From NCBI GenBank assembly GCA_964016885.1, contig OZ024740.1, forward strand, positions 191,518,001 to 191,582,000: a stretch of 64,000 bases of DNA. The letters run 5' to 3'. The notes beneath the pieces are model-generated. The model saw nothing but the letters and a program-made list of their open reading frames with translations, made no database searches and was not told where the DNA came from. Positions 3,406 to 54,609 of this stretch are shown here, piece after piece (position 1 is the stretch's first letter; the number at the start of each line of letters is the position of its first letter). Made by a program: the position numbers and the translations under genes. Source of the DNA: Eledone cirrhosa. Its lineage: Eukaryota.

Positions 3406-3409
3406 ATTA

Positions 3410-4005: not shown

Positions 4006-4007
4006 TC

Positions 4008-4193
4008 TATGTCCCTCGGAAGTATCCCCCCTATTGGGGAATTTTTCTTTTTTTGTTACATCATCTGTTTTTTTACACGGAGAAATGCCGATCTGTACCG
4101 TCCTGTATTGTACTGTATTGTCCTTAATGTCTTACTTTGTGTAAACCCTTGTGGTTAATAAAGAAAGCATTATTATTATTATTATTATTATTA
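4008..4193 (+). mobile_element. 5'-truncated Tx1-family 3'UTR fragment with (ATT)n tail
   Basis: CCCCCCTATTGGGGAATTTTT...TGTACCGTCCTG...TGTAAACCCTTGTGGTTAATAAA matches 14845-15010. Confidence 0.9.
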
Positions 4194-7100: not shown

Positions 7101-7948
7101 TACGATCTCATTATTTTCATTTGGAGTTTCATCCTGAGCATGCACTCCCTCCACATTTTCGATCCTTTCTTTAATTTGTTCTGTTGCCAGTGATTCCGCC
7201 CCAACCCTGGGATTTGAAGTGTTACAATTTACCTCGTTTTCACTGACACATGTTTCCTTTTCCCTTCGCTGACTTTGTGCTAATAGCTTGATCTGATCAA
7301 TTTTTATATCAGTTAGTAACTTTTTTTTTACAATATTTCTTCGTACATTGGCTAGTTTGTTACTGTCAATATAGCCTCTGTTTTCGGGATGTTTCTTTTT
7401 CCAGTTGATATATGTCTGCTCTGTATTCGATGTATTTGATGGGTAGTACATGGCAGTGTAGAAAGCCTCAAGGACTTCTTTATTATCTTCCCTGACCATT
7501 TTTCTCTCTTTTTCTTTGGATTTCTTGGTGGTGAGCATTTAGAACCAACAGTAGGAGTATTCCGGTTATGGGAGGTCTCCAACTCCGAAGTGAAGGGAAT
7601 ATTTGAAACATTAACTGATTTTTCGACCCTAGTCTGGTTCCTCTCTGAGGGACGCGGCCCTTTTTTACCCGCGTGACGGCCGATCCGGTATGAGATTTTA
7701 TCATTAGACAATTACTTTATTTTGTCGCGTTTTATCCTTATCCGCCAAGGGGTAATCATTTCGTGTTACCACTTCTAGAACGAGTGTGAACCAAGACTAG
7801 AGGGGTCGTTTTTCCCTAGAGACACGGCTATTCCCCGCCGGCCGCCATCCCGGTATTTCTTGGTCAAGGGTTTTTTTTTTGCTGTTTTTTTAAATTGTTA
7901 TTATCATGAGTGGTTCCTTAACGTGAGCATTGCGTGGCTCAAGAATGG
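4194..7948 (-). mobile_element. Decayed, near full-length R4/Dong-type non-LTR retrotransposon, copy 2
   Basis: RT motifs WIDYKKAFDS, HLFYMDDLKLFAK, MEFGLDKCA. RLE tail PDIILKD...KYKDLEIEIGKMWK..TIPVVVGALG (4339-4551). 3' end abuts the (ATT)n tract at 4169-4193. Colinear with copy 1. Confidence 0.95.
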
Positions 7949-9196: not shown

Positions 9197-11276
9197 ATGG
9201 CTACGAAAAATAATTTTCATGGGTCACTCCAACTCATTCCGTCTTCTTCTTCCTCAATCGTCACTACAGCAGAGAGAAGATTGTCTCTCTCCCTCCCTTC
9301 TCTTTCGCAAGCGACGACAGAAAAGAAAAATCTCGTGCAAAGCGTGCAATATTTCTCCACGACGACGACGACAACGACGAAAAAGGTGTGCGGGAAATAC
9401 GAAAACCCATTTCATTCGTCTGACGTCAGGAGTAATAGCAGTAGCAGCAGTAATAACAACAGCAACGTTGACAAGGAAAACAACCTTAGTAGCCGCAACA
9501 GCATCATCAGCAGCATAAACAACAACAGCATTAGCAGCAGCAACAACAACAACAACCACAGGAACAGCGGCAGTAGTCGTAGTACCTGTAGTAACAACAA
9601 GAGTAACAGCAGCTCTGACGACAACAACAACAACAAAAACAGCAGCAAAGAAAAACCTATCTCGTTTGCAGGTATCACAAAGAACCTGGAAACCATCCTC
9701 ATAAAAAATGAGGAATTACAGGAAGCGAAGAAGATGGTTACGAAAACAGGACACCGAGCAATCTGCAAGGCAGCCGAAATTTTTTTCGAAACCCAACAGC
9801 ACTGTACGGTCACGTACCGTACAGTAAGTACAAAATTCCGTAGGCTTGAAAGAGCCACAGAGGCTCAGATACAAAAGGCTTTGTGGTCTGTGTGGCAGCG
9901 GAAAACGCACATCACCCGAGGCAAGTAATATGCCACCGTAGACGTACTTTTTGCCACATCCCAGGAGGCAAAGGCTCAATACTTAGTGACCCTAAGGTGC
10001 GAGGAAATGGTGTTGGTGCCCTCCTACTGCGGGCAAAAAAATGTGAGGGTCAAACTGACCCACGCCCCATGGGATGGATCCTTCTTGGCTGGCCGCGTCT
10101 TTCCTCGTCGGAATCGAGGACAAAACAACTGTACTGCAAGTACAGAAAAAAGTAAGAGAAGATTGGGTCGGCACCTCCATTGAGATGTTAATCAAAACCA
10201 ACCAGGAGAGCATCTAAGCTATCCCGGATGTGATAGACTTCGATAACGGCACTCAACTGCCCATAAGTGTTGAGGGCAAACGCCCGAAATGCTTTCGCCG
10301 TGGTTCGAAGACTCACCTCAGGGCCTTCTGCAACAAGAAGACCCCGAGAAAGGAGAAAACCCCCCTCCTTCCGAAACCGGCTCCACGGCTACCAGCAACA
10401 GGACAAGCGGCAACCAGGAACGAAATGTCCGTGGCACCCATTCCCACGCCACGGAAATCAAAAACAGCAGCAGCAGTAGAAATATTAACAACAACAACAG
10501 CAATACCAAATGCAGCTGCAACAGAGACTCCAGTGCAAACATCACCAACAACAACACGTGAAAGAGTGGAGCTGGTACCCCTCCCCGACCTCACAGAATC
10601 AGACATGGAGTGTGAGGTGGGAGAGGGATGGCCAAAGGTCGTAAGAAGGCACAAACGCAGAAGCAGCGCATCGTCGCCTTCGAAAATGTAGGAAGGAAAT
10701 GAAAAAAGGGTAAAAGCTACTGCAAAGAGACTCACAGCAGCAACACCACCAACACCATCACCACCCACACTAGCACCACCATCACCACCGGCGACAACCC
10801 CACCGCCAACAACAACAACACCTTCAACACCACCACCACAAGCACCAAGATCGCAAACACAACAACAAAACGCACACACCCAGCAACAACGACAAGAAAA
10901 TAGCAGAACAACACCCCACCCCCAGAAAAACAAATGCACGGCAATAAATACACACAACAAGAAACTAATGACTTACATAATTGAACACACAGACATTTCA
11001 CAACACCACTACATAATACCAGCACCAATCAAAACGCCAACTAACATAAGACTGCTAAAAATAGCACAGAAACAATACACAAACATTAAAACGAAATTCC
11101 CCAACGCAGTTGGTGATTTCAGAGACCTAGGAGGGCCTCTCAATCGAAGGGCATTTTCGGACATACTCATAGAAGAGCCGACGACCAGCCGAAGGGACGA
11201 TTCAACCGTCCCTTCACCAGACGATCAAGTGAAAAGGGATGGACAAACCATCCCTCCTCTACGAAAAGTACGGTAA
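9197..11276 (+). pseudogene. Tx1 ORF1 (gag-like, zinc knuckle), disrupted
   Basis: N/S-rich N-terminus, SFAGIT motif, degenerate knuckle KCFRRGSKTHLRAFC, P/T-rich tail. Homologous to 15662-17464. Confidence 0.8.
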
Positions 11277-11311
11277 GTGGTCTTTCCGATCTTTTCCACT
11301 CTATTTTAAAC

Positions 11312-14300
11312 ATGACCTCACTCAGAATAGGCAGCATAAATACGCGTGGCTTGGGGTCGTCGTGGAAGCAGGGTCACCTGCTCAACGATGTCAGGTCACT
11401 AACCATAGATGTACTGGCGATCAGCAAGACCAGAACCTCCGAAGCACGGGGTTCGCACCGATCTTCGGCAGCTACGATGTGTACTTATCTCCCAGCCGTC
11501 TTGGATCGGAGGGAGGAATTGCTGTGATTTTTCGGAGAGGTTTGGATCTCGCCACGGGCCATCTTCCTGGACCCAGAGGGTAAGTTAGTGGTGCTGGACG
11601 TGACCAGCGGAGACGGGCAACCTTTCAGGCTAGTGGCCGTCTATGCCCCGACAGGAGCATGGCGGCCTGATTTCTTCCGGCGTCTGGAGACCTTTCTTGG
11701 AACGTCCCGCTCTTTAGTGTTAGTGGGCGACCGGAACGGGATCTTAGATGCACGCTGGGACTGTGTGGAATTAGAGGATAGGGGTGGAGGGTGCAAGAGC
11801 CTCACCAACCTGCTGAGGTGTTTTGAACTGTCTGACTGGTACGATTGGATTTCCCGAATGTGCCAATGTGGACTTGGACAAATTGCATAGGGTCATCCAG
11901 ATCATATCTAGATAGAGTATTTTGTAGGGAAATAGATAGGTCTAGCATAGGCTGTCCACAATTCACGATAGTCAGCTACACGGACCACGATTTCATGATC
12001 TGTGTGCTTGACTTAGATAGGCTTCATAGACAAGGACCCTGCTACTGGAAGCTAAACGCGTCCTTACCAGCGCGCAAGGCCTACAGAGACCGGATTAGCG
12101 AACTAGTTAAGCCGGCGTTGACGGAGGTCATCGTCAACAACAAGTGGTGGTTTGCTCTTAAAGGAGCGATTAGAATAGAATCCATTAGGTTTAGTAAGGC
12201 TTTAGCAATAGAGAAAAATAGAGCAGAGGGAGAAGTAGTCAGAAAATTAGACGAGGCGCTTAGCAAAGGCATTGCGACCGACGTGATTGCGTCGAAATTG
12301 GCCCTTGACATCTTCAATGCAAAGCACGAAGGCTGCGTTGTCAGAGCTAGGGTGCGTGCTCTCAGACACGAGGGGACGAAAGCCGTTCAATGGGCCCGAG
12401 TGGCAGAGGCGCGTCGTGGCAACAAAGCCACGATCCGGTCTTTGGTGGACCACGAGGGGCGCATGGTACTCGATCCCGGGCAAATGTGTGAAGCTTTTCA
12501 GCGACACGTCACTCAGCTGTTCGGGGGCAGAGGTGGGCTCGGTCGAGGGATGGACTTTAGTGTTTACCTCGACGGACTGCCGCGGCTCTCGGCCACTAAG
12601 GCGGGGTGTTGCGAAAAGCCGATAACAGCCGCTGAAGTAAGAGAGACAATGACTGGCTGCACAAGTGGTAAATCGCCTGGTTTGGATGGTCTGCCCTATG
12701 AACTTTACGCACAGATGCCAGACTTGCTCGGAGGCCTCTTGGCGGACGTCTACTGCAACTGGCAACAGTTGCGGGAGAATTCCCAGTTCTTTGATCCGAG
12801 GAGCAGTGGCACTGCTGAGAAAGGATCCGAACAAGGGGGATAACAGATTATTTCATGCCCATAACTCTGCTAAACACAGAGTTCAAGATTTTGGCCAAGG
12901 TGCTAACAAAAAGGTTGGCGCTTGTCGTTGGTGGTGTGATGGGAGAGGCACAGACATGCGCCATTCCCGACAGATCCATCCACGACATCCTCCACCTCAT
13001 GCGATACATCGTAGAGAGGGTAGCTAGGGAACCTGGCACGGGTGGGTCCTTAATCAATTTAGATTAGTCGAAAGCTTTCGATAGGGTCGACCATCGTTAC
13101 CTAGCGGCAGTGCTGAGGGCGGCTGGATTCGGGCCCGTCTTCAGAGGCTGGATCGCTGCCATGCACAGCGACATCTGCTCTGTGGTGAGAGTGAACGATC
13201 ACCTTTCGGAACCGTTCAACATCATGCGCACGGTCCGCCAAGGATGTCCCCTCTCGTCCCTCTTGTACATATTGACTCTCGAGCCATTACTGCACAAACT
13301 GGAGACGTTGAGGGGCGTCCCGCACAAACTAGGATGCGGAAGATCCGTGTCGGAATATGCGGATGATGTCACCGTAGTGGTGTCGAACGCCAAACACATC
13401 GAGGCGATCGGCACTACACTAAGAGAATACGAAGCGGTGACAGGAGCAATGATCAACCAGGAAAAGTCAGTGGGCCTGCAGCTCGGCACCTGGAGAGGCA
13501 GCTCCATGCCGTCCAACAGCGTCGTCGGACTCTGGACAGACGGAACGGTTAAATTGCTAGGAGTCTGGTTCGATCCGGATCTCCAGACGGACAAAAACTG
13601 GGACGAGGTGACGAGCAGGGTGGCATCTCTCACCCAGAAATGGGCGGAGAGGAAGCTATCCATGAAAGGTCGAGCGGAGGTGGCTAACGCGTGCCTAACT
13701 CGTTAGGTGGCTAATGGAGGTGGCTAACGCGTACATCGCGTCTGTCATCTGCTACCGCCTGACCGTCGTACCTTTTCCTAAGCCTCGCCTGACTGCGCTG
13801 GAGCGTTTGCTCTTTCGCTTTTTGTGGAAGGGACGCGCTCCGATGGTCAGGCGGTCCATCTGTTGTCAACACCCGCTACGTGGAGGGCTGGGCATGCCGT
13901 GGCTGATGATGCGCAGGCACGCGCTCAGGCTACGACATCTCCACCTCTTCCTCGACGGTTATCAGGTGTGGTCGCCGTTTGCTAGACACGTATTTCCCCA
14001 GGCCGTTTCCTTGACGGAGCTGCAGTCCTGGGTCAAGCGAAGACCGAGAGGGAGCGCCTGGAGACTGGAATGTCTTCAGGCGCTCACAGCCCTCGACCAA
14101 TCGGGCAATGTGATCGGTGGAAACTCCACCTCGGCGTTTTATAGATGATTAGTGGAGGGGAAGAGTGACGACGTACTTGGGGAGAATCTAGGCGTCGACG
14201 AAAATCAACTAGCCAATCTCTTCGGAAGATCTTTCGGGCCGGGGCCTATGGACAACTTCCAGAAATCTCTGTCCTGGCAGTGCTACCGAGGAGCCTTGCC

Positions 14301-14762
14301 AGTTCGGGATAAACTCTACAGGCATGGAGGTGCCGTCAGCAGGGCATGTCCGAGATGCGCGCATGGTGACGAAACCGTCCTGCACGCACTCGTCCAGTGT
14401 CCGAAAATTGCTGACTTGTGGGTTTATGTCGAACACCTGCTGTCGCATTTAGGACGGATCCGGCTATCATCTGAGTCCAACGTGGGGATGCCCCGCCCTC
14501 CTCATTTAGCCGGGAAGGGAAGGCAGTTTTTATCTGTCTGGTGGCCATGGCGAAAGAGATAGTATGGTGGACACGTTTGAAAGGGCTGAAGACGAGCACT
14601 TTCCTCTTCGGTGATGCTCTGATAGACTTTTTCAAATTTCATTTGAAAAGGAAAATCAGAGTAGAGAGGGAAGTGCTCTCTTCCCAGCATTTTGTTGAAA
14701 AATGGGTGAGAGAAGCTAGAATGGCCCGTGTGAATGGGCCTACTCTGAGCATTTATCTGTAA
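11312..14762 (+). pseudogene. Tx1 ORF2 (APE endonuclease, RT, Zn finger), disrupted
   Basis: MTSLRIGSINTRGL, LVAVYAP, SYLDRVF, YTDH, YWKLN, KSPGLDGLPYELY, PITLLNTEFKILAK, RQGCPLS, EYADDVT, CPRC..GDETVLHALVQC. Confidence 0.93.
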
Positions 14763-15010
14763 ATTAAAGGTGGAAAACTGGGAGAGGGCACTTGCCTTGG
14801 TGGTCAGGGTCATTGTGGCCTTTTACTGGGCTTTCTCCACAAATGTCCCTCCGAAGTCTCCCCCCTATTGGGGAATTTTTCATTGTTATTTTTTGTTACA
14901 TCCTCTGTTTTTGCTTTTTACACGCAGAAATGCCCATTTGTACCGTCCTGCATCGTCCTGCACTGTCCTTAATGTCTCCTTTATGTAAACCCTTGTGGTT
15001 AATAAATAAA

Positions 15011-15050
<40 letters not shown>

Positions 15051-15250
15051 GGCTGTCGATTGTCAGTATCGGTAGAGGGTCGGACGCCATGTTTTGACAC
15101 ATAGAATTCCGTCCCTTGCCATTCCGAGTTCAAATCCCGCCGAGGTTTACTTTGCCTTTCTTCCTTTCGGGACCGATAAAATAAAGCACCATTAATGCAC
15201 TAGGTAATTGCTGGCCTTGTACCAAAATTAGAAACAATTATCATTATTAT
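15051..15250 (+). mobile_element. tRNA-derived SINE (octopod-like family)
   Basis: A-box-like TGTCAGTATCGG, B box GAGTTCAAATCC, body TTTGCCTTTCTTCCTTTCGGGACCGATAAAATAAAG, tail GGCCTTGTACCAAAATTAGAAACAATTAT. At least 7 copies in the window. Confidence 0.88.
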
Positions 15251-15251
15251 T

Positions 15252-18200
15252 GGTCTGTTCGGAAGCTTTTTGCTCGCTCCCAGTAAGTCGCTTTATTTAC
15301 GTGTTATAATTATTTGTGGCCTAATTTTTCTTGGTGTGTGGACTTTGCCCTGTGAAGGGGAACGTATAATATTTGGGACTTTTCGCCCAAATATTTGAAC
15401 AATATTTGAAAATATTACTTTTGAAAAAATATATACATATATAAATAAAAACATGGCTGAGCCATGCCCCTCCCCCATCAATATGTCTGCTGTCGTGTGA
15501 TAATGGCGTAAAAGTTAAGAGAAGGGTTAATGAAATTCATACAACAGACACCACGACAAACTACGTGAACAAAGACAACACTGAGAACACTAATTTTGAA
15601 AATATTACGACACCAACTACAACAATAACAACGTCAACCAAAATACAGACTACAGAAAAAAATGACAACAAATGCAACACCGATATTGAACACCACTAAC
15701 AAGAAAATATACAACGACAACACCAACAGCAACAATACAAATTGCACCGAAAACAAAAACAACGGTGACACCAAAATCACAACCAACTACAACAGTTATA
15801 ACAGCAACAACATCATCAGCACCGTTTGTAGAAGTAGCAACAGCAACAACATCAAGAAAGAGACCAGTAGCAGCAGTAGCGGCAAAAATAATTGTGCCGC
15901 TGAACAAGGGACCACTTCTTTCGCAGGGGTTGCCCGAAATATAGGGTCAGTGCTAGTCACGGAGGAGGAGATGGCAGACGCAAGAGCCATGGTGTCGAGA
16001 AACGACAATAGAGTTTCCCTGAAACCTCCACCCGATTTCTTCAAAGATCTGCAGCTGCGCACGGTGACTTACCGCACCGTAAGTAAAATGACACATCGGG
16101 TGGAGAGGGCCACGGAGGCTCAGGCTCTAATCCAAAAGGCCTTGGGGTGCATCTGGGCACGCCAAACCCATATCACCCGAGGCAAAAAGTACGCCACAGT
16201 AGAGGTACTTTTCGCCAACCCCCAAGAGGCGAAGTCTCACACTTTGGAAACCCTAAGAGTGAGCAGATAGTATTGGTGCCCTTCTACTGCCGGCAGAAAA
16301 TTGTGAGGGCCAAAGTGACCCAGGTACAGCCCGACGTGCCCATACGTTGGCTGGCCGCGTCTGTACTGGCTAGAATCGAGAAGACCACCATACTGCAGAT
16401 ACAGAGAATTGAAATAGACAACTGGTTAGGAATAGGCATGCACATGCTAATAGAGACTGACCAGGAGTGCACCGAGGCCATCCCAGACATCATAGACCTA
16501 GAAAAAGGGCTCCGAATCCTATTAAGCTTAGAAGGATGGCGCCCAAAGTGCTATCTCTGTGGGCAGAAGCGTCACCTCAGAGCCTTCTGCCCGCAGAAGA
16601 TAGCCAAGAAGAGGGCCCCCCTCCTTCCGACGCCTGATCCGCTGCTACCTAGAGCAGGGCAGTCAACAGAGGTAGAATATCCTTCCATGGTGAGTAGGGG
16701 GGAAACGTCCGTGGCACCCGTACGGAAGCCACGGACAACTAAAGCAGCGGCAGCAGTGCCGGCAACACCAACAGTCGCAGTAGCTACACCGGCGGCAAAA
16801 TCGCTGGACCCGTCTCCACTACCACCACCAACAGCAGTTGAACTCAAGCCCCTCCCGGATGCACCGGGATCCGACATGGTGTGTGACGAGGGAAGGATGT
16901 GGAAAACGGTCTGCCACAATGAAACAAAAAAGAAAATACCTTTTAGCTTAACCCTCCAAAAGCATAGGCATACAAATAGTGGTAAAGGCTGCAACGATTA
17001 TTGCAGCAACACCACCACCATTACCATCACCACTACAAGCATCACCACCAACAACAACCACACCACCAACAGCATCACCAAAACACCAACGTCGCTAACA
17101 CAACAAAACACACACCTAACAGCAACAACAAGAAAACTGCAACAAAATCGCCCATCCCCACGAAAAGTATACAACCATAAACATGGCAAATAATAACTCT
17201 TACAACATATAAAGCAGCACACATACCTCACAGAAAAAAAACTACTACACCCCACCAACACCAAGGTCGCTACCGACAAAATTGAAAATCAATGAAATCA
17301 AAATAGAACGTTACAAACTTTTGAAACAAAAATTCCCCTACGCAGTTGGAGACTTCAGAGGGTCGGTTACCAAGAGTATATACACCGACATCCTCTTGGA
17401 AACACCCATGACCAGCCAAAGGGACGGTTCTACTGTCCCTTCACCACACGATCAAGGTAAGTGATCCTTACTCACTCACCCCGTTTGTCATCCAGCATGG
17501 CCGTACTTAGAATAGGCAGTATAAAAGTACGTGGCCTGGGGTCATCTTGAAAGCAATGTCACCTGCTCAACGACCTCAGGTCATTGAACATAGATGTGGT
17601 GGCCATCAGCGAGACCAGAATATCTGAGGCACGAGCCTTCACACAGATCTTCGGCGGCTACGATGTATAAGCATCTCCCAGCCGTCCAGAATCGGGAGGA
17701 GGATTTGTCGTGCTTTTTCAGAGAGGCTTGGATCTCTCCATACGGGCCATCTTCCTGGACCCAGAAGGTAAGTCGGTGATGCTGGACGTGACTGGCAGTG
17801 AAAGCAACGCTAGTTACAGTATACGCCCCAACGGGGGTAGGACGGCCAGATTTGTTCAGATATCTAGAGAGCTTTCTTGGAACGTCCAGCTCTTTAGTGT
17901 CAGTGGGTGACTGGAACGGTATAATAGATGCACGCTGTGATTATGTGGGGCTAGGAGACAGGGGAGGAGGTTGTAAAAGCCTCAACAACCTGCTCAGACG
18001 TTTTGTACTGCCTGACAGGTATAGACTGGATTATCCGAATGTGCCAATGTGGACATGGGCAAACCGCATCGGGACATCCAGATGCGATTTAGAAAGGGCA
18101 TTCTGTAGAGAAACAGATAAGGCTAGTGTAGGTTGACCACAATTTAAAGTAGTCGACTAAACTCACCACAAATTTGTGATCTGTGAAGTTGACTTAGATA

Positions 18201-21135
18201 GAATCCATAGGCAAGGACTTGGATACTAGAAGCTGAACGCGTCGTTCCCAGTGCGCAGAGCTTACAGAGACCGTACTAGCGAATTAGTTAAACGTGCATT
18301 GACGGGTGCGATCGTCAACAACAGGTGGTGGTTTACCCCGAAAAGGGCTATTAGAGTAAAATCGATAAGGTTTAGCAAAAGGAGTAGTGAAAGAGGAGAA
18401 TAGAGTAGAGGGAGGGTTAGTTAGAAAGCTAGAAGAGGTTTATAGGAGAGGTATCGCAACTGACGTGCTTGCTGCGATTGGCACTCGACCAATTCTTCAA
18501 CTCAAAGCATGAAGTCTGCGCGGTCAGATCTAGAGTACGTGTTCTAAGACACGAGGCCGTTTAGACACTTCAATGGGCCCGGGTGGTGGAGGCGCGACGT
18601 GGCAAATAGTCCATAAATCGGTCTTTTTCTGATCAAAACGCGTGCATATTGATCTAAACCGAGCAGATGTGTGCGGCTTTTCAGGAGCACTGTGCTCAAT
18701 TGTTCGGGAGTGGAGGCGGGCCGGATTGGAATGTGGACTTCGGTGCATACCTCGACGGACAGCCTACCACGACCGCAGGCAGTGCTGCGAAAAGCCGATA
18801 ACAGCAGGTGACATACGGGAAGCGATGTCTGACTGCACGAGGAGTAAATCGCCAGGTTTGGATGGTCTGCCCCGCGAGCTTTATGCGTATATGCCAAACT
18901 TGTTCGGCGACCTCTTTGCAGATGTCTACTGCAACTGGCAACAGAACGGCAGCATTCCCAGTTTTGTGAGCCGGGGTGCGGTGGCACTGCTGAGAACAGA
19001 CCCGAAACATGGGGACGTTATAGACAACTTCAGGTCCATAACTCTGTTAAACGCTGAGTTTAAGATTTTGGCGTCGGCTTTAGCAAAGAGATTGGCGCAT
19101 GTCGTTGGTGATCTGGTGGGAGAGGAGCAGACATGCGCCATTCCGGGCAGATCCATCCATGACAAACTCCATCTCATGCGATACATCATGGAGAGTGTGG
19201 TTAAGAAACTTGGCACATGTGGGGCCCTGATCAACTTGGATCAAACTAAAGCATTTGATAGGGTCGACCATATGTAGTTGGTTCTTATCCTCGGGGCGGC
19301 TGGCTTCAGGTCAGTCTTTAGGGGATGGATCGCTGCGATGCACAGCAACATCTGCTCGACTGTAAGGGTGAATGGTCAACTGTCACAGCCGTTCAGCATC
19401 ATGCGCTCGGTGCGTCAGGGTTGTCCCCTTTCGTCGGTCTTGTACTTATTGGCCCTCGAGCCGTAACTGCAGAAATTACATGCGAACTGGGATGCGGGAG
19501 ATCCGTGTCATCTTACGCCTAAGACGTCACCGTGTTGGTGTCGAGCATCAAACACGTCCAGATGCTCGGCACTACTCCAACGGAATACGAAGCTGTGACA
19601 GGTGTAAATATATAACAGGAAAGGTATGTGGGCTTGCAACTCGGCACCTGGAGAGGAATCCTCCTTGCTGTCCGACAGCGTCGTGGGGCGATAGACAGAA
19701 GGACCGGTTACATTGCTCGGGGTCTGGTTCAGTCCGTACCTCGAGATGGAGAAAAACAGGAACGAGGTGACGAGCAGGGTGGCCTCTCTCACCCAGAAAT
19801 GGGCTGAGGGGAGGCTGTTCCTGAAAGGTCGGGTGGGGGTGGCGAATGCGTACATCGCGTCCGACATCTGCTACCGTCTGACAATCGTACCTTGCCTCCA
19901 CCCAACTCTGACCAAAACGGAGCGCCTTCTCTTCCGACTTTTTTGAAAATGACGAGCTCCCATGGTCAGACTATCGAACTGATGTTAAACCACATTGCCT
20001 GCAGGACTAGGTATGCCGTGGCTGATAATGCGCAAACATGCGCTGTGGCTGCGACATCTATGTTGCTTCCTTGACGGTGTGGTCACCGTTTGCCAGAGTT
20101 GCTTCTCCCCAGCTCGACTCATTGACAGAGCTGCAGTCCTGGATCAGGAAAAGACCGAGGGATTGCACTTGGAAGCTGGAATATCTTCAAGCGCTCACCG
20201 CCATTACCGGTTGCAGACTGTTATCGTTGGAACATCGACCTCGGCGTTCCATAGAGGGCTAGTGGATGGGAAGTGTGATGACGTTCTTGGGGAGACCCCG
20301 GGCGTAGAAACCGATCAGCTGTTCGGTCGCTTCAAGAGAACTTTCAGACAGGGGCCTATGGACAACCTCCAGAAATCGCTGGCCTGGTAGTGCTACGGAG
20401 GAGCGTTGCCGGTACGGGATAAGCTCTACAGGCACGGAGGTGCTGTCAGCCGAGCCTGTCCGAGATGCGCGCCGGGCGAAGAAACCGTACTGCACGCACT
20501 CGTTCAGTGCCCGAGGATTGCTGACTTGTGGTGCTATATCGAACAGCTGCTGTCACGTGTAGGATGGATCCGGTTATCGACTGAGTGCATTGTGCAGATA
20601 GGAGGAAGGGCAGGCATTTTTTTTTATCTGCCTGGTGACCATGGCGAAAGAGATTGTGTGGTGGACAAGGTTGAAAGGGTTGAAGACGGAGACTTTCCTC
20701 TCCGGCCAATCTCGGATTAACTTTTCCAAGTTTCACTTGAAGAGAAAAATCGGTGTGAAGAGGCAAGTGCTGTCTTCTAGTAAGTTTGTTGAAAGGTGGT
20801 TGAAAGTGGAGAGTCTGATCAGATTGAACGGGCCAGCCCTGAGTATGCGCCTGTAGACTGAGGAGTGGGAACACTGAGGGAGGGTGCTTACCCTGGTAGT
20901 CAGGGTTACCGTGGTCTTTTTTTGTGGTTTTCACCACGAGTACCCTCGGAGGTTTCCCCCTCTTTGGGAAAATTTTGTTGTTTGAATTTTTTTGATTTCT
21001 AGCCCGATTTAGTTATAACCAGTTTACACGACCAAACACCTACTTTGTTTAGACCTATACTGTTCTGTGCCGTTTCTAATATTTGTCTTCATGTTAGCAC
21101 TTATGGCCAACAAGGAAACCATTATTATTATTATT
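15252..21135 (+). mobile_element. Full-length decayed L1-clade (Tx1-type) retrotransposon, copy 2 (diverged subfamily)
   Basis: ORF1 with an intact knuckle KCYLCGQKRHLRAFC. ORF2 from ATG 17497 with VYAP, KSPGLDGLP, SITLLNAEFKIL, KAFDRVDH, RQGCPLS, CPRC...HALVQC. (ATT)n tail at 21121-21135. Confidence 0.93.
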
Positions 21136-22996: not shown

Positions 22997-24796
22997 TTAC
23001 GCTGAGATATTTCTGTGGTTGATCTTGCGTATGTGTGATTCTATGTTAGCTGCTGTTGAGAATGAGAGTTTTATAGTAGATCTATTGAGTATTTTGTGAT
23101 ATCTATCCGAGATAGGGAAGTGTTTATCTATTAGTTTAAAGAATGTAGAGGGCAGTCTAGTTTTTATAGAGGAGTTGAATATTGGGTTGAACCATAGGTA
23201 TTTTCTTTGTCTGTTTCTTCTATTGTTTCTTGAGTTTACGTTATTAGTGTTTTGGCCGTTTACTCTAGGTGTTACATGTCTAACCCTATGTCTAGTCAAG
23301 CTATTCCTATTATTATGCGAGCGGTTGGAGTAGAAATTACTAGGATTGTTTATGTTGTCTTTATTCACTATATACTGTAGTTTATCTTTATGACCGGCCC
23401 TACTTAATGCTGCATTATAATAGTCAGCATGCTCGTTAAAAATTTCTAGGTTTGAGGATAGGCGGGATATTCGGAGGGATATACTACGTGCTATGGATTT
23501 AATTATGGATTTGGGGTGATTTGAGTTGTAACTAATGTAGGCAAGATTTTCATTATTTTTGTGGAAAGGTTCTATTAATCCAGTATTTAGATTTAGAGTT
23601 ACATCTAGAAAATTTACCTTCTTATGGTTTAGTTCGTAGGTAATACTTAGGCCTAGTTTTTTGAAGAATATTCTAATATTTTTCCTTAGTCTTTCCATGC
23701 TCTGGTTGTTTAGGTTCCTAGCTATAAGTAACGTGTCGTCCCTATAAATTCCTCCTTGGAGGTTACTGAATTCCTTATGTAGGTTGTGTGCTATGAATAG
23801 CCCCACGATATCTGTAATTTGCGCAGTACCATTTGATCCCATTGTAATATCGAAGCTATTTATTCTATCCTTTCTTACCCAGTAGTTATTTTCAAATTTT
23901 ACGTTAGTCCTTCTAGCTGCTATTATTATTTCAATTTCATCATGGGTAAGATTAGAGTTATTTTGGGCAAATTTAAGCGCCTTATCTAGGGTAGCTGGGG
24001 ATATGGATGCATAATAGTCGTCTATATCAAATTGTATGAAGTTACACGTCTCCCTATTTTGTATTTTATTGAACCATTTAATTGCCTCGTTAGTGTTGCC
24101 CCATAAATTGATTTCTAGTTTACCCTTTATTTGTGCGATTACCCTATCTAGAATGTTTTTGCTAATTTTACCTATGTCTGACTTGGATGGGCATATTAAT
24201 CTAATGGTGGGATTAGTTTCAAAGTTATTTTTGTGATCTTTCAGGTTAAATGTAGGGTTGCACGGGGTAAGCGGTTCGGTCCTATCTGAAATTCCGAGTT
24301 TATTAACTATCTTGAGGCCCTCCATGTTTATGCTGGTGAGTGTAGATTCATTAGTTGTTTTATATTTTTTATGTAGTTCACGCTGAATAAAGTTATTGTA
24401 TGTGTTAATGTCCATAGAGTATAGGTTTGATGTTTTGTCTGCTTTTACTATGATACCGTTAGTGTCTTTTAGTTTTTTAAGTAATGTATTTAAGACATTT
24501 TGCAATTTGTTGTGATTTGTTCTTTTTTTAAATCTAGTTTCACTTATCATGTTCATAAGGTCCAGCTCGAAGGCATCGAGTGCGGGGTTGTTTGGCGAGT
24601 TTTTGCAGGATTTAAACCCGTAATTCTCCTTGGAAAATTCCCTTCTGTTGGTAGTCGGTCCCTTATCGAAATGGTAAGCTTTCCAACGGACCCTGCGGAT
24701 GAAATCATTAGTCCGTCGTATCATGCCCAGTGTATAGTCCTTTTTTGTAGGTACAGGTATGTTTTTTAGTGACATACCTATACAGTGCTTCTCCAT
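22997..24796 (-). CDS. Penelope-like reverse transcriptase (open for 599 aa, separated from the EN by a disruption)
   Basis: [25 protein letters not shown]...[57 protein letters not shown]. Confidence 0.9.
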
Positions 24797-24842
24797 GTTG
24801 TTGCCGTGCGTTAATGGTGTTGCTCGACCAGGTGGGAGCTAA

Positions 24843-25279
<437 letters not shown>

Positions 25280-25481
25280 CATATATGCGACTATAACGTC
25301 AAGATGGGAAAAGTAGTTAACGAAAGATTTAGGAAAAATAACTCAAACTCATCTCAAAAGAGAATCAGGATATAAATTCATCCACAGAATTTAGTAAAAT
25401 CCAGGGAAAATCTATAGACCTTTAACTCATGATAAAATAAAGTTTGAAACACTTATCCTTCAATTTGGAATAACATCAAAT

Positions 25482-25563
25482 GCTCTGTATAGTCTTAAAA
25501 TACTATTTCATGAAAACTTTCAGTAGAGATGGTCACGGTTGGAATTTCAATCATCAGCAGAGC
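25482..25563 (-). ncRNA. Mirror-image hammerhead in the left arm
   Basis: Reverse complement of 25673-25754, with one stem III mismatch and two changes in the stem II region. Confidence 0.8.
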
Positions 25564-25672
25564 TCAACAGAAAACCAGGGCTCTCACAGTAATATAATCC
25601 GAAAAAGGGAATTCTAAAACTGAATTCCCTTTTTCGGATTATATTACTGTGAGAGCCCTGGTTTTCTGTTGA

Positions 25673-25754
25673 GCTCTGCTGATGATTGAAATTCCAACCG
25701 TGACCATCTCCACTGAAGGTTTTCATGAAATAGTCTTTTAAGACTATACAGAGC
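25673..25754 (+). ncRNA. Type I hammerhead ribozyme
   Basis: gctctg-CTGATGA-t-tgaaa...tttca-t-GAAA-tagtctt-tt-aagacta-TA^cagagc. 6-bp stem I, long stem III, AUA triplet at 25746-25748. Confidence 0.88.
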
Positions 25755-26005
25755 ATTTGATGTCATTCCAAATTGAAGGATAAGTGTTTCAAACTTTATT
25801 TCATCATGAGTTAAAGGTCTATAGATTTTCCCTGGATTTTACTAAATTCTGTGGATGAATTTATATCCTGATTCTCTTTTGAGATGAGTTTGAGTTATTT
25901 TTCCTAAATCTTTCGTTAACTACTTTTCCCATCTTGACGTTATAGTCGCATATATGTTATAGAATGCCGTTAGCTTCTTGCTAAAACAATCTCTATACCT
26001 CTCAT

Positions 26006-27403: not shown

Positions 27404-27427
27404 TACATGCATATATATATATATATA
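26523..27427. repeat. Complex (ATAC)n/(AT)n microsatellite array
   Basis: Directly visible; source of the spurious YI/HT ORFs. Confidence 0.97.
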
Positions 27428-27829
27428 TAGAAAGGATGAATATAAAATGAAAGTGCTCTTTTTAAAACGGAATTTATTAGGTATTGACATATGTTTCTGT
27501 AACAGACCGAATACCTATGTATCGCTGCTTGCGTAATCATATAATTTATCCAAAATCTCTGAAGAAGTGACAACTGATTATACATTTGCTATCGAATACT
27601 TGCTAACATTATATGATTACGCAAGCAGCGATACATAGGTATTCCGTCTGTTACAGAAACATATGTCAATACCTAATAAATTCCTTTTTAAAAAAAGCAC
27701 TTTCATTTTATATTCATCCTTTCTACATTTTCTCCGGAATATAATTCATACTCGTTGAGCAAACCTGCACGTACGCTGTTCATCTCTAACGTAACGATAT
27801 ATTATCACTACATTATTCATAACCTGAAA

Positions 27830-27833
<4 letters not shown>
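27428..27833. mobile_element. Palindromic mini-element (~118-bp arms, ~60-bp spacer, 3' tail) with a hammerhead-like fold
   Basis: 27428-27545 is inverted at 27608-27725. taggtatt-ccgtc-tgttaca-GAAAC-atat-GTC-aataccta at 27636-27675. Confidence 0.8.
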
Positions 27834-27871
<38 letters not shown>

Positions 27872-27952
27872 GTTATTCCGGGTTGAATCGGAGGTAACCT
27901 CAGTAAGTATGATACTCAATACATTGCACATTATATAAGTTTTAATATAGAT

Positions 27953-28005
27953 GAGATTTTACAGGACTAGAACTGTTTCATTCTTTAGAAATCATCAGGA
28001 ATCTC
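27953..28005 (-). ncRNA. Mirror-image hammerhead
   Basis: gagattc-CTGATGA-tttctaaagaat-GAAA-cag-ttctagtc-ctg-TA^aaatctc. Confidence 0.82.
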
Positions 28006-28006
28006 T

Positions 28007-28059
28007 GAGATTCCTGATGATTTCTAAAGAATGAAACATTTCTAGTCCTGTAGAATCTC
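28007..28059 (+). ncRNA. Type I hammerhead ribozyme
   Basis: gagattc-CTGATGA-t-ttc-taaa-gaa-t-GAAA-ca-tttctagtcc-tg-TA^gaatctc. Perfect 7-bp stem I, GUA triplet at 28050-28052. Confidence 0.88.
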
Positions 28060-28075
28060 ACCTATTTTAAAACTA

Positions 28076-28100
28076 TATATATATATAGAGAGAGAGAGAA

Positions 28101-32874: not shown

Positions 32875-33750
32875 ACGTGATGGGGCCCACCGTCAGCCCC
32901 GGCGGACAGAATGGAGAAGGCGTTGCCCCGGAGCGGGCGGCAAGGGAGCCGCCGCGCTGGAAAAGCCACTCGAACCCGCGGGGCTCACACCTGCGGCTGG
33001 CCAGCTCAGCGCCTATGGGGTGAGTAAGGAGGTAGCCATGGGGCCGAGGACACCAGAAGTCTTCACTGCCAGGGGTACGACCGCAAACCTGTCGGAGAGC
33101 GACCGATATTTGAAGAGTTTGGCCACCTGAGCCCGACGTGCAGCAGAACCTGGGTCAGTCGCAGACTGCACCATGTTGCGGCTGCATAAAGTGTCGGTGT
33201 ATGTGGAATCCCAGCCGAGGGGCTTGTCACCGCGGAACGGGAAGATGGTCATGCCATCTGTCCGTTTGGCGTCCCCTCGATCTAGCCCCACCGACTCGAG
33301 TTGGGAAGGGAAGCCTGCAGCGTCCAAGCCATGTTTAATGACCTCGTTTAGGGCAGCATGGCGTGGAATGCGGCCGGCCCTGTGGCGACAGGAAAGCGGG
33401 TGGAGGCTGAAAGAGTCCACAGTGGAACCGCAACGACATTGGTGTGGCTGGCAGATCTGGAGGCCGAGACTGAGGTAAACGCCGATTCCCAGGCTATGGT
33501 TGTCTAGCTGCGTGCCAGTGGAGAAGGAGGGCAGGGCATGGAGCCGGTCACCATCGTGGGGTTTGGAGGCCGCTAGAAAACAAGCTAGGCGGTGCCGGTC
33601 GAGCTGGCGCGTGAGCCTGTCTGAGGCCAAGCTGCACTGGATGGCATCCCAAGTGCGTTTGGGGGACTTGACGTCAACAGGGGGAGAAGGAGGAGGGACG
33701 TCTACTGGGCTAAGTCCCAGCCGGTCCCACGTCTCACAGGCGGCTTCACG
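32875..33750 (-). mobile_element. 5'-truncated CRE-clade non-LTR retrotransposon (Zn finger + RLE)
   Basis: LHALPS...GT.LD, CRCG...HPLSC...GRIPRHAALN, KRTDG.T..P...G..L.WDST, KYR.L, VPLAVKTSG.LG. GC-rich island. Confidence 0.85.
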
Positions 33751-36700
33751 TTCTCTATATAAGTGTGAAACAAATCAGGGGCTGATACGATCGACATCTG
33801 CCTCCGTAAATAATTGTTTCAAAGTTAGAAATCAGCATGCTAACAAGCGTGACACGTCCTGTCTCTTCATTAAGAAAACGCCTTTAGTAGACACGTTGTA
33901 CAAGAAACCCATCAATGTAATGTTTCAACTATTTGCTTTTAATTATTGCTAATTGAGTGATACCATTAACAGAACTGTATATAATATGTTCTTTTTATTT
34001 TTCAGATAAAAGTGATATATTGATTTTAAAATATTTATCAAAGAAACATTTTCTATTTGCTTTACAACATTAAAAAATACAATATGAATACTAATAGGCC
34101 TACGTTTCATACATTACGATTAACAGTCTTCACTTTATTCGGTGTACTAAACAGAAACAGTGCAATCGTCTGTACAGATGTAGGCACTGAATAGTCCTAT
34201 TTTATAAGAATCCGAAACAAAAAAAGTAAAGAGTTAATGATTTCCCTCGGCAAATAATACTTGGGATAAATGATTATTTACATGTGGAGTCAGAATTCTG
34301 AAACTTTTGATTGGAAGGCGTATTTCTTATTGAAGCAATATGAGAGAGAGGGGACATATATTATGTGTATATATGTGTATACGTGCGTATATTTGTGTGC
34401 GTAACATTTCAAGAGATACAGATGCTGCTATGTCTAAATATAGAAAAACACGTGGCATATTACTGTGGTTGATAGAAAAAGCCTATTTTATTTGAAACGT
34501 GAGTTAGCATGGATGTGATACGTTACAGCAGGACTTATGAGTAATACGCGATAAATATCTCTGAAATCAAATGCTAACATTGAAAAGAGTCACACAGAAT
34601 GTGGTTATTTGCTCCGTCAGGAAATAAAATGTAACAAGGTAACCTGTGTTTAGGTTATATAATAAGATAGGGAAAATCGTAACCGGAACGCTTGGATTAA
34701 AAAAAAATAGAAAGAGATAGATATACTGAAGGATCCTCTATTGACTTACTGCATGTGTTTAAAAAACTCAAATGTTGCTCAAATAAAACCCCTTCGTCTT
34801 AAATAAGATAGATCCTATTGCATAATGTACTTCTAAACAGCTAAAAATCAATAGGGTCAGTAATATTAGAACAAGTGTTAAATAAGTAAAAAAAAAACGA
34901 ACTAACTGTTATCATATATATACCTCCAAACATGGGCTAAGGGAGAAATTCATAGGAATGAATCACATGAACGTAGATCATTTTCTAAGCTGGCAGATGG
35001 AGTATTTTCTAAATCTGGGTAGGGGAGCCGTTCTATTGTGAGCATTTGTAGGTATGTTTACTGTGTGTTTAAGGCGTAAATGATCGTCAGGGATAATAAA
35101 GCCTTGCATTTGGAGCGAATGCGAGGGCTTTTCTGTTCACCGTTGTTCACGATTAAACATGGTGCAATTAAGTTATGATTTAGTTCCATGCATATAGAAT
35201 CAACAGGTCAAATGAACCATAAAATGCGAAATGAATCATATCCTCCATTGATTTGCTTTCAGTCATTCGAATGGCCTACAGTCATAGCGGGAAAGGTGTT
35301 AAAGAGATTTGGCGATCATATCCATGACGTTTCAATGTATTACATATTATTGAACAGTAATTGACGATTTATTACATTACAGGACAAAGGTAAAGAAACG
35401 CACACTGAATATTATCGTTCAGATCTTAAAACTGAAATGACTAATTTAAGAATTATCCATTTAATATTCTATCTATTAATGTATTTTCCTTTTCGATCAG
35501 TTAAATTATGTTGTTGTAATTGTAGGGTCCCAACCATGCATTTTATATGTTTCATGTTTTATCCGAGGGTATTTCTAGAATAATTCGTCTTGTGAGCACA
35601 TGATAAATATTATCAATTGCTATATTACTGTAAAGTCAATGCAGTATCCACGTACGTCCTCTTTCAAGATTAAATATTATGGACAGGATTTCATAAGCTA
35701 ATGGAGTCGGAGCAACATTACAACACACATCAAAAAATAGAAGGCATTCTTACAAGGATGGTACATAAAGTAAGGACTGGTAACATAATCGTTATCATAT
35801 TAGTTAAATTTTCTTTGTGTTCTTAAGCTTTCATACTATAGCGTGTATATTCTTTGTAACTAAACTTGTCACTTTGCAATATGTTATGGCTGTAACTATT
35901 TTCAATGATAAATTTCATTATATTTCCTAGTCGATCTTTGCAAATTACAAAAAGGAAAGACATTGTGATCTATGCCATTGTCTTTACAGCAATGTAAAGA
36001 GGGGAAAGACATAACAATAAACATTTAACAATGCAAATATAGTGCATGCATATATTGTCCCTTAACTCATGTTGGAATCATAAGGGCATCGTATAGATAT
36101 ACATCGTTTCTAGGGCATTTTCTTTTAACCGGGTGGAGCTCATCTCCTCTTCAGGTCGCAAATATAGTGCAAATAAGATTTATTTCATATTTATCTTTTA
36201 TCTTCAACAGAAGACTTTGACATGAGCAATAAACTCTTTAGAACAATGAAACATCTTTGTACTTATACAGAGGAACGAATTATAGCAAACATATGTGTGC
36301 AGAAAATAAGAACATGGTTGGCGATAGCCTCTAGTTACGAACGTCTAAAATTGTAATACTATATTATTAATGAACCAAGTAAAATTTCCAAAGCGATATG
36401 CTGCCTTTTCATGTGACTTCATGTTTCTTCCACTTCACTTAACGTTTTGTAATATCACATCATGTCCTCTGCTGCTTATGTAAGCGTAAATAAGTTATTT
36501 TAATCAACCTTAAGTAGATGATGATATTTTTACGATTTCATTCCACGTTCATTATTTCTGTCCTTCCACCACCTTACGTTAGGTTTTAATAGCTTTTCCA
36601 TTAATGGATAACAGTAAATCTTAACTGACATAAAGAATATTATACATAAATATGTTTAATTATCATACAGATTGAAAGCAGAACATTACGAAATAGAACG

Positions 36701-44088: not shown

Positions 44089-44748
44089 ATATATATATAT
44101 ATATGAAAACAGGGAGAAAGAGACGATTATGAGGAAGAAAAATATTTTTTTTTTTCCTTTTGTTGTCCCTCTCTCTCTTTTTTCTGGGTTAGAAAATGAT
44201 TAAAACGAAATGTTTTACTTTGTATGAAGTGTTAAGGTATTAGTTGATTTATTTATTATTTAACAATGCCATTTTTTTATCTATTTATATATTTAATTAT
44301 TGTCTATTACCGGTTTCTGCATTTATATGCATTATACAATGATAGTGAAATGTGGTGTCGCACATGTTAAACAGAAGGTGCAGAAAGAATAATGTTATAT
44401 TCTCTCCACATTTTATTATTATATATAATGTCCTCTCCACATGTTATTATTATTATTATATATATATATATAATATATGAACAAATGGAAACTATATTTA
44501 TAAAACCATATGTATTTCATTATACATATTTCAAGGACACCAAAGCAAATTATGGTGCGCTTTCATATAAACAAATATTGACATACCCTTAAAAGAATGC
44601 GACCATATATGTTGGAAGCTCCCGGAGAGTGGGGTTACTAATTTTATTATTGGTCTATTATGCAAATTAGTGTCAGAGAAGTTTAAATCCCATACATATA
44701 AATTAAGCCGTTGGAATAAGAAAAAAAACAAAAAAAAGGAATAGGAAA

Positions 44749-45275
<527 letters not shown>

Positions 45276-46520
45276 TATATACTTTCACTCCGACACTAAT
45301 TTGTATAATAGACCAATAATAAAATAAGTGACCCCACTATCCTTGAGCTTCCACCAGATATGGTCGCATTCTTTTAAGGGTATATCAATATTTGTTTATA
45401 AAACTGGTCTATATTATATTTTATGTGATGAATGCGTACCTTAATTTGCTTTGGAGTCCTTGAAATAAGTATAATGAAATAAATATGTTTTTTTATAAAT
45501 ATAGTTTCCATCTGTTAATATATTGTTAATATATTTCAATTTGTTAATATATTTTACTACAAAAATGTTGTTGAGTGCTTTATATCAGTTATAACAATAT
45601 TTGCTTGTTGTATCCCAACAAATTAAATATAACTTTGGGAGGGTCATGTTACTATAAAAACACACGATCTTGCTGGATTTCAATTGTATTTGTTATAAAT
45701 ATCCGGTTCGATAGCCAGAATGTTGTTTATATATTGTCAGAGCTCTTTTTTCACATATTCCGTGACGTCCTCAAGAAGATGTTGTAGGACAGAACAAAAG
45801 AGAGACACGGAAAATAAATACGTATTCACTGAGGAGGTCATAGGAGGTCACCATACATCCACCACCCTCACCCGCACCAACACATAACAATTACCATTGA
45901 GACACACTCATAGCACTAGCACCATACACTTCACCACAAATGTTTGCATAACATTTTGTATCAGGAATTTCACAACCATTATTCAACACCGCTTCTGTCT
46001 ACCTCATTTTAACCCCACAAGATATCATCTACATGAATCGCTGATGCGTGTACACCGGCACATGTCTCGTGTACGCGCACGCGTATGTACATGCATGTAT
46101 ATTTGTAGGTTTATGTACTGAAGTGCATCTAGTCATGTGCAGAGTAAGTTAGTGTGTATGTATTTATGTATGTCCATACGTGCGTGAATACACCCCTGTA
46201 CATCCATATAATAGTATGGATCACCGGACTGTGAGCCCCCTCATCTCGTCGGCGTGTACACATGCGGGAACCCAGGCATATGTACGAAACATACAAGGGT
46301 CGATGCGTCCGAACATACATACAATCCGTACGACGCTAGCGTGAGACCGTGGGGCCAGTGCGGGTGTCAAGGATCAAAACTCCATATCCGCTGCTGCGAG
46401 CAGTTAAATAAACAAGGCACGCATATCTGACACCATGGATCTCCCACGTCTGCCTATGTGGGGTGATATATACATGGGTGTGTTTGTGTATATATATATA
46501 TATATATGTGTGTGTGTTTG

Positions 46521-50676: not shown

Positions 50677-50727
50677 CTCTGTGATGTAGTGTTTTTGCAT
50701 AATATGCCACGAAACTACGTAGTCGAG
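50677..50727 (+). ncRNA. Hammerhead-like fold with atypical 5' core
   Basis: ctc-TGTGATGTA-gtg-ttttt-gcataatatgc-cac-GAAA-ctacgtag-TC^gag. Mirror copies near 49635-49685 and 50224-50274 (-). Confidence 0.55.
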
Positions 50728-50801
50728 GAGTAACGAAGGAATTTGGGTATGGTATATCTTATTAATTGTATCTAATTGTTTCCTATTTCTTTATAATGTA
50801 T

Positions 50802-50920
<119 letters not shown>

Positions 50921-54592: not shown

Positions 54593-54609
54593 GCATAATA
54601 ATACAAGAA

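What the first reader, a model, noticed from the sequence alone, without database searches (positions are those of the whole stretch)
27871..28075. Minimal element: two hammerheads joined back-to-back exactly at the start of stem I
The palindrome centre (28006) is the nucleotide immediately 5' of the 7-bp stem I on both strands, so the ~200-bp insertion is little more than ribozyme, antisense ribozyme and tail. Inference: the RT stalled or folded back at the ribozyme helix, or this is the smallest self-propagating unit.
Basis: partly seen in the sequence, partly recalled or inferred. Interest (0 to 1): 0.72.

Follow-up and report, generated by a model that had tools for sequence, protein, structure and literature searches.

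The report
Penelope palindrome marks RNA start site
This 200-base mirror-image insert is two short copies of the front end of a common Penelope-like jumping gene joined head to head, and its turning point likely marks where the element's RNA begins rather than a stall at the ribozyme, which would help explain how this class builds its inverted ends.

Summary
In detail: centre 28006, a hammerhead core in each arm. The insert is a stub of an abundant Hydra-clade Penelope-like element (10,768 exact core matches; parent ORF). Its explanation is not. Only 2 stop at the 3' side of the helix. Native stem I is 6 bp, and the seventh pair comes from an added G. Stem I begins 30 nt below a TATA box. In a subfamily whose TATA sits 3 nt further up, ends at -4 are in strong excess (14 versus 2, p 4e-8), so the break likely follows the promoter. 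The exact window junction occurs at 96 loci in both polarities and several subfamilies, so it is no single self-propagating unit. Best model: two cDNAs from two fixed start points run off the RNA's 5' end and are joined. No RNA data were available. The scan reached this reading before on other DNA of this genome.

The parts
27834..27870 (.). Left (TA)n target tract; its last two bases are also the element's +135/+136
   Evidence: sequence
27871..28004 (-). Long arm: element positions +1 (28004) to +134; 7 differences from the family majority besides two subfamily-polymorphic sites
27871..27937 (-). One-sided tail (+68..+134): the stretch between the two fixed 3' ends, inferred to be the two RT start sites
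   Evidence: PMC11167929 for the tail's origin in another PLE
27953..28005 (-). Type I hammerhead motif of the long arm: core 27998-27992, GUA 27962-27960; stem I closing pair broken at 27959
28005..28007 (.). Three junction bases that are not native: a G in front of +1 on each strand and the central base 28006
   Evidence: native upstream sequence; junction classes
28007..28059 (+). Type I hammerhead motif of the short arm: stem I 28008-28013 with 28053-28058 (seventh pair 28007-28059 not native), core 28014-28020, GAAA 28033-28036, GUA 28050-28052
28008..28074 (+). Short arm: element positions +1 (28008) to +67, the commonest short 3' end; 3 private differences
28074..28086 (.). Right (TA)n target tract, followed by (GA)n
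   Evidence: sequence

Best explanation
The insert is two copies of the 5' leader of a Hydra-clade Penelope-like element joined head to head in a (TA)n tract, and it likely formed in one event in which two cDNAs ran off the likely capped 5' end of the element's RNA and were joined. Shown: the parent element, the two fixed 3' ends (+134/136 and +60/+67), one long and one short arm per pair, the pile-up of 5' ends at about +1 to +3, the TATA box at -30, the excess of -4 ends in the subfamily with the shifted TATA, and matching variants in both arms. Inferred: the element's protein cuts both strands of (TA)n; each cut end primes reverse transcription at one of two internal start points of the same RNA (or RNAs of one source); transcription starts at the A that is also the first base of stem I; the added G copies the cap; the two cDNA ends are trimmed and end-joined with 0-13 extra bases. 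The hammerhead is a passenger here: it lies at the centre because it occupies the first 51 nt of the RNA. The product is likely dead.
For: Parent: the same leader runs into an ORF with RT and C-terminal GIY-YIG-type motifs, RWR, DKT and CxCx5C, the Hydra diagnostics of PMC8557442. Hotspot: of the first 100 of 4,991 long-arm ends, 43 stop at -2..+9, 4 at -12..-3, 12 at +10..+30, 13 at +31..+115, 28 further upstream: a sharp upstream edge with a downstream shoulder, as run-off plus trimming predicts. Promoter: TATA 30 nt above +1 in 47 of 61 promoter-bearing arms, 32-33 nt in 11. Decoupling: the GCC subfamily is 9 of 66 promoter arms yet gives 14 inverted junctions ending exactly at A-4 against 2 in the main subfamily (counted by eye; Fisher p 4e-8, or 4e-7 with 12:54). 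Two primers: 62 of 62 adjacent inverted partners of long arms are short; in L158, L203 and L212 the long arm starts at +57, +64 and +112 while the partner still runs from +1..+3, so it is no copy of the final long arm. Same source: the +21 variant agrees in 97 of 97 pairs against 49% expected discordance. Added G: 44 of the first 50 of 323 both-arms-to-+1 junctions have a G before +1 on at least one arm and none is flush (by eye); 25 of 53 distinct loci next to a TA tract have G, 19 C, 9 A/T (by eye). In vitro, a Poseidon PLE protein cuts both strands, starts internally at two sites that bound the tail and needs no ribozyme cleavage (PMC11167929).
Against: The transcription start is predicted from TATA and initiator-like letters, not measured. 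The added G is not proven to be cap-derived: in the main subfamily stem-I fold-back gives the same letter, and in 13 of the 14 minor-subfamily junctions the G can be the partner arm's own base. No downstream marker separates the subfamilies, so I could not count minor-subfamily copies that still end at +1; the subfamily ratio comes from loci mostly on contig C1. 19 of 53 TA-adjacent junctions carry native-like C at -1, which needs a second start or another source. The commonest BLAST-called end is +2, not +1 (calls are blurred by overlaps). Arm concordance could also come from later repair within the palindrome or from one subfamily being active at a time. D. virilis Penelope has a TATA-less internal promoter and its intron ends at helix I, so this layout is not general. 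38 of 100 long arms have no adjacent partner called within 1,400 nt.
Confidence: 0.72

Rival explanations
1. The RT stalls or folds back at the ribozyme's stem I, so the helix itself fixes the inversion point.
For: Ends pile up at the first bases of stem I. A join straight through the two stem I strands exists at 43 loci, and a few inserts match the 3' strand for 4-5 nt.
Against: Wrong side of the helix: 2 ends at +43..+54 against 4 expected; by +6..+1 the helix is already unwound (inference). Ends at -4 are in excess when the TATA shifts while stem I is unchanged. The stem-I join is rarer than the 96 window-type or 323 both-to-+1 loci (patterns differ in length).
Confidence: 0.08
2. The RNA end at stem I is made by processing, not by transcription start: the U-rich tract and CAG at -1..+2 act as a 3' splice site, as the D. 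virilis intron ends at helix I.
For: The native sequence looks like an acceptor; PMC4209133 maps the D. virilis intron end to the 5' end of helix I.
Against: Most ends keep +1 or +2, which would be intron. Inserts at inverted junctions are at most 13 nt, and 8 partnerless arms ending near +1 share no upstream exon. The CAG stays in place in the subfamily whose ends shift to -4.
Confidence: 0.07
3. One arm is copied from the other by self-priming (snap-back of the cDNA, or priming on an antisense transcript), as proposed for Adineta Penelope palindromes.
For: PMC3846280 reads junction palindromes as self-priming. Arms agree in 97 of 97 pairs. Many junction inserts look locally templated.
Against: Partners contain leader sequence that the long arm lacks (7 or more cases). 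Partners end at fixed sites, +60 and +67 in 46 of 62, and at +73 (a BLAST overrun of +67 into TA) in 10 more, which a copying strand has no clear reason to do. A later trimming of the long arm could rescue this model.
Confidence: 0.09
4. The 205-bp palindrome is a minimal self-propagating unit (SINE- or retrozyme-like) copied as a whole.
For: 96 loci share the exact 39-nt junction; 5,335 back-to-back cores with a gap of at most 17 nt exist, sister families included.
Against: Among the exact-junction loci L111-L140 the central T lies on the short-arm side in 17 and the long-arm side in 13 (one more mis-scored), across 13 polarity-haplotype classes, with short ends called from +53 to +73. No flank is shared in register: 4 of 1,540 pairs match, one from a script mis-assignment and three at different offsets, of which I inspected two as other repeats in the TA tracts. 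No promoter; both cores are paired in the hairpin with probability above 0.99.
Confidence: 0.04

Closest known systems
Hydra clade of Penelope-like elements (Craig et al. 2021, PMC8557442), e.g. Hydra-1_Obim, Hydra-1/2_Amil
   Same: C-terminal endonuclease, RW(R/K), DKT, CxCx5C linker, hammerhead in the pseudo-LTR, (TA)n target; the parent protein matches the supplement's Hydra rows motif by motif (by eye).
   Different: Not Hydra-1_Obim itself: its listed hammerhead and protein letters differ. The element with its microsatellite-filled 3' UTR is about 3.7 kb, longer than the under 3 kb typical of the clade. The tail is about 69 nt, not 30-40.
Inverted 5'-truncated PLE insertions with a one-sided tail (PMC8557442 Fig. 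2 legend; Adineta Pen families, PMC3846280)
   Same: Head-to-head arms, tail on one end only, microhomology-type junction.
   Different: Here many insertions are leader-only stubs whose junction sits at the predicted RNA start; the passages I read explain such palindromes by self-priming and map no hotspot.
Poseidon element of Anolis (PAc; Frangieh et al. 2024, PMC11167929)
   Same: Two internal RT start sites bounding the tail, cuts on both strands of AT-rich DNA, uncleaved hammerhead RNA used as template.
   Different: Other clade; its hammerhead overlaps the ORF start, whereas here it fills the first 51 nt of a 182-nt leader. The main text does not treat how inverted copies or their 5' junctions form.
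Non-LTR retrozymes (bioRxiv 10.64898/2026.07.22.740005, part 1 of 5 read)
   Same: Short non-coding PLE-derived repeats with a type I hammerhead.
   Different: Retrozymes are direct tandem repeats thought to move through circular RNA; this is an inverted pair with no sign of being copied as a unit.
L1 twin priming (recalled, not read here)
   Same: Two primers at one target site on one RNA give an inverted insertion.
   Different: In L1 the second primer anneals at variable internal sites; here both start sites are fixed and both cDNAs copy the same leader, which gives a palindrome.

Membership tests
Penelope-like element, Hydra clade (parent) | Single ORF with RT and C-terminal GIY-YIG endonuclease | tested here: met
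   L063 4336-6478 (one frameshift) and L062 1472-3262 carry the RT and endonuclease motifs, matching Hydra rows of the supplement by eye. Pfam and PDB gave no informative hit.
Penelope-like element, Hydra clade (parent) | RWK-type motif, DKT in place of DKG, CxCx5C linker | tested here: met
   RWR, DKT and CNCLNKEAC in L063; criteria
Penelope-like element, Hydra clade (parent) | Pseudo-LTR with hammerhead; same leader before the ORF and after the 3' UTR | tested here: met
   L038 runs promoter-hammerhead-leader-ORF; L063 ends promoter-hammerhead
Penelope-like element, Hydra clade (parent) | Insertion into (TA)n | tested here: met
   window flanks and most loci
Penelope-like element, Hydra clade (parent) | Placement in the Hydra clade on an RT tree | not tested
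   reference proteins were seen only in a paper supplement and were not available as tool sequences
Inverted PLE insertion | Head-to-head 5'-truncated arms with the tail on one end only | tested here: met
   window; 62 of 62 adjacent partners short
Type I hammerhead ribozyme | Core CUGANGA, GAAA, NUH; stems I-III with the cut 5' of stem I's 3' strand | tested here: met
   native 6/3/4 bp; window + arm 7/3/3, - arm 6/3/4 with the closing pair lost
Type I hammerhead ribozyme | G10.1-C11.1 pair and a stable catalytic fold as monomer | tested here: not met
   U-U at that position; hammerhead fold 3.3-6 kcal/mol above the minimum, cores buried in the full hairpin; no Rfam hit
Type I hammerhead ribozyme | Self-cleavage at GUA | not testable with these tools
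   bench assay; PLE hammerheads are weak or protein-assisted
Non-LTR retrozyme / self-propagating SINE | Direct tandem units, or one master unit copied whole | tested here: not met
   inverted pair; mixed polarity, haplotypes and ends
Pol II promoter-defined RNA 5' end | Capped RNA starting at +1 | tested here: inconclusive
   TATA spacing, subfamily shift and added G agree; not measured on RNA

The most novel reading that the evidence does not exclude
Hydra-clade Penelope-like elements place their hammerhead at the very first capped base of the RNA, and their inverted insertions are written by two RT events from the two cut strands; thousands of genomic palindromes are therefore a fossil 5'-RACE library that maps the start site to the base, records the cap as an added G and moves with the TATA box. 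Ribozyme cleavage would then act as a decapping switch that removes a 45-nt capped piece.
Probability: 0.5. Interest if true: 0.62.

Novelty: new variant of a known kind. Interest (0 to 1): 0.45.

Why it matters
How Penelope-like elements make their inverted ends is open: one paper proposes self-priming on antisense RNA and asks for experiments (PMC3846280), and the in vitro study leaves the later steps unvalidated (PMC11167929). This family gives counts that separate the models, including a natural experiment in which promoter and ribozyme shift against each other. It also suggests a role for the hammerhead at the capped start. The single insertion in the window is an ordinary, oldish, likely dead copy.

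Tried and rejected
Rfam: no hammerhead at gathering score in the window or at E up to 10 locally; the miRNA hits are generic hairpin matches below their cut-offs. The first DNA search used a query spanning the junction, so its top loci L001-L030 are biased to the window's junction and were not used for the histogram. RNA: no RNA holder listed. Contigs of runs X1-X4 laid on the window did not span the insertion, so presence or absence of an empty site is untested; they show loose ends at 28001-28004, from one study. Pfam and PDB gave nothing for the parent protein. Naiad clade rejected: its endonuclease is N-terminal. Long pairs about 5-7 kb apart were partly chance neighbours or nested inserts. 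The forward/reverse imbalance (6,746 against 4,022) is unexplained; one search's imbalance comes from overlapping matches. The last part of the script failed and was redone. Literature: searches found no paper that maps PLE inversion points to a transcription start; the library lacks most subscription journals. Searches gave no passage confirming cap copying as G, so that step is recalled.

Full report
Observation. The palindrome is real. Its centre is T28006, with 32 perfect pairs and 64 of 68 pairs out to 27938/28074; hammerhead cores start at 28014 (+) and 27998 (-), and GUA lies at 28050-28052. The insert sits between (TA)n tracts. I number the element from the A at 28008 (+ arm) and 28004 (- arm) as +1.

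What it belongs to. The 24-nt core has 10,768 exact matches in the window's 3.0-Gb genome and none for the reversed control. In L038 the same sequence follows a promoter-like stretch and runs on into an ORF; in L063 that ORF carries RT motifs, a C-terminal GIY-YIG-type domain, RWR, DKT and CxCx5C, and is followed by a 3' UTR that ends again in promoter, hammerhead and short end. These are the Hydra-clade diagnostics of PMC8557442 (section read; supplement rows compared by eye). Inverted 5'-truncated copies with a tail on one end are a known PLE layout (passages). The window's insert is the leader of this element twice: +1..+134 on the - strand and +1..+67 on the + strand.

The seventh base pair. 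Parent copies have C in front of +1 (65 of 66 promoter arms end CCC or GCC, one ACC), which cannot pair with C+52. Native stem I is 6 bp. The window has G in front of +1 on both strands plus one central base, so three junction bases are not native. The claim 'exactly at the start of the 7-bp stem' describes one junction class: 96 loci with the exact 39 nt, 19 of the first 50 of 323 loci whose two arms both reach +1; 13 of those 50 have a one-base insert, 3 a four-base insert, none is flush (counted by eye). Among 14 close back-to-back pairs in the first 100 rows, 2 have the window's spacing.

I took all of the first 100 of 4,991 exact long-arm 3' ends (contig C1, 0.3-84 Mb; loci), a choice blind to the 5' end. 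BLAST-called 5' ends: -400 or beyond 16; -399..-121 6; -120..-13 6; -12..-3 4; -2..+9 43; +10..+30 12; +31..+60 4; +61..+115 9. Within -120..+107, 43 of 76 fall in 11 positions (p 2e-36). A few loci may be duplicates (L166/L168). For the 62 with an adjacent inverted partner, 46 partner ends lie at -1..+9 and 36 at -1..+3. So the prediction of non-random points is met, with a sharp upstream edge and a downstream shoulder.

Why there. A stall at the helix predicts ends near +46..+54, where an RT first meets stem I; 2 were found against 4 expected by chance, and the pure stem-I join occurs at 43 loci. The +1 base lies 30 nt below a TATA box in 47 of 61 promoter arms, in an initiator-like context (consensus recalled). 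A minor subfamily has the TATA 32-33 nt above +1 with the same hammerhead. It makes up 9 of 66 promoter arms. Genome-wide, short inverted junctions that reach its -3 base give 43 rows (36 loci) against 23 rows (21 loci) for the main subfamily. I dropped 11 loci in which the G is simply the partner's base and 5 that do not match at -4; of the 20 left, 14 end exactly at A-4, against 2 in the main subfamily (12 reach -4 or beyond). Fisher p is 4e-8, 4e-7 with a conservative 12:54 ratio, and 2e-6 for 20:12. Ten of the 14 mirror the main one-base class; scaling that class (13/50 of 323, times 9/56) gives about 13, my arithmetic. The break therefore likely follows the promoter. Limits: no downstream marker lets me count minor copies ending at +1, and the start site was not measured.

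The added G. It appears in 44 of 50 junctions and in 25 of 53 distinct TA-adjacent junctions listed (first 100 rows; 19 have C, 9 A or T; by eye). Copying of the cap as G is a recalled property of RTs; my searches gave no passage for it. Fold-back onto stem I gives the same letter in the main subfamily, and in the minor one the G can be the partner's base in 13 of 14, so the cap origin stays an inference.

Two primers. All 62 adjacent partners of long arms are short, 46 of them called at +60 or +67. This matches two internal RT start sites bounding the tail, shown in vitro for the Anolis Poseidon protein, which also cuts both strands and does not need ribozyme cleavage (PMC11167929, parts 1-2 of 4 read). 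Partners often hold leader sequence that the long arm lacks (L158, L203, L212, L152, L100, L188, L150), which argues against simple copying of one arm. Both arms carry the same +21 variant in 97 of 97 pairs where 49% discordance is expected from free mixing (all fetched loci pooled), so they share a source; later repair of the palindrome is not excluded.

Not a self-propagating unit. In 30 exact-junction loci chosen by list order (L111-L140, 31 junctions) the central T faces the short arm 17 times and the long arm 13 times, one being mis-scored; 13 polarity-haplotype classes and several short ends occur, and no flank is shared in register. The stub lacks the TATA box. A transcript across it folds into a -101 to -107 kcal/mol hairpin that pairs both cores. 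Each arm also has a damaging change, and the long arm has 7 private differences against a median of 2 in 101 sampled arms (a sample biased to intact copies).

Ribozyme status. The core letters and three stems are present, but the 10.1-11.1 position is U-U, the hammerhead fold is not the minimum-energy one, and Rfam does not call it. Metazoan PLE hammerheads cleave weakly in vitro (PMC4209133, passages). Activity is untested.

Comparison with print. Papers seen: PMC8557442 (passages, section 11, supplement hits), PMC11167929 (parts 1-2 of 4), PMC3846280, PMC4209133, PMC2377424, PMC13000458 (passages), bioRxiv 10.64898/2026.07.22.740005 (part 1 of 5); others as listings only. The layout is known. 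I found no paper mapping PLE inversion points to a transcription start. PMC3846280 favours self-priming; D. virilis Penelope has a TATA-less promoter with an intron ending at helix I. I had reached this reading, which shows that the scan noted the same idea on other DNA of this genome; those notes are unchecked and are not counted as support.

Verdict. Real, a known kind of insertion, with a junction rule that is likely set by the RNA's 5' end. Confidence 0.72; interest 0.45.

Noticed in passing
window 22997-24838 (-), continuing to about 22500: A second Penelope-like element of another family: 613-aa RT frame with RWK and DKT motifs, and endonuclease-like sequence beyond a break.
   Followed up: no
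window 25275-25961: 687-bp palindrome, 97.5% arms, 7-nt spacer, between TA tracts; a CUGAUGA motif at 25679 (+) and 25557 (-), about 60 nt from the centre.
   Followed up: partly
window 27425-27830: Another high-copy inverted insert next to the finding, again with one short and one long arm between TA tracts; a CUGAAGA motif at 27559 lies in its non-palindromic middle.
   Followed up: partly
window 44462-45534, 49560-50807, 54415-55026: Further imperfect inverted repeats of 135-425 bp.
   Followed up: no
L075 709-797: Sister family with the same TATA-to-stem I spacing (-29) and a compensatory A-U to C-G change in stem I; sister-type junctions also fall at +2..+7.
   Followed up: partly
L032 1498-1539: One copy whose 3' end falls at +45, the predicted ribozyme cut, as if the 5' cleavage product had been copied; a single case.
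   Followed up: no
L066, L067, L069, L091, L094, L146 (about -120 to -152): A possible second cluster of 5' ends near -141, at an A-rich repeat of the promoter; partly a BLAST artefact of indels there.
   Followed up: no
window 1736-7538, 10218-19277, 33013-33774: Fragments of several other non-LTR retrotransposon-like frames; labels from recalled motifs.
   Followed up: no
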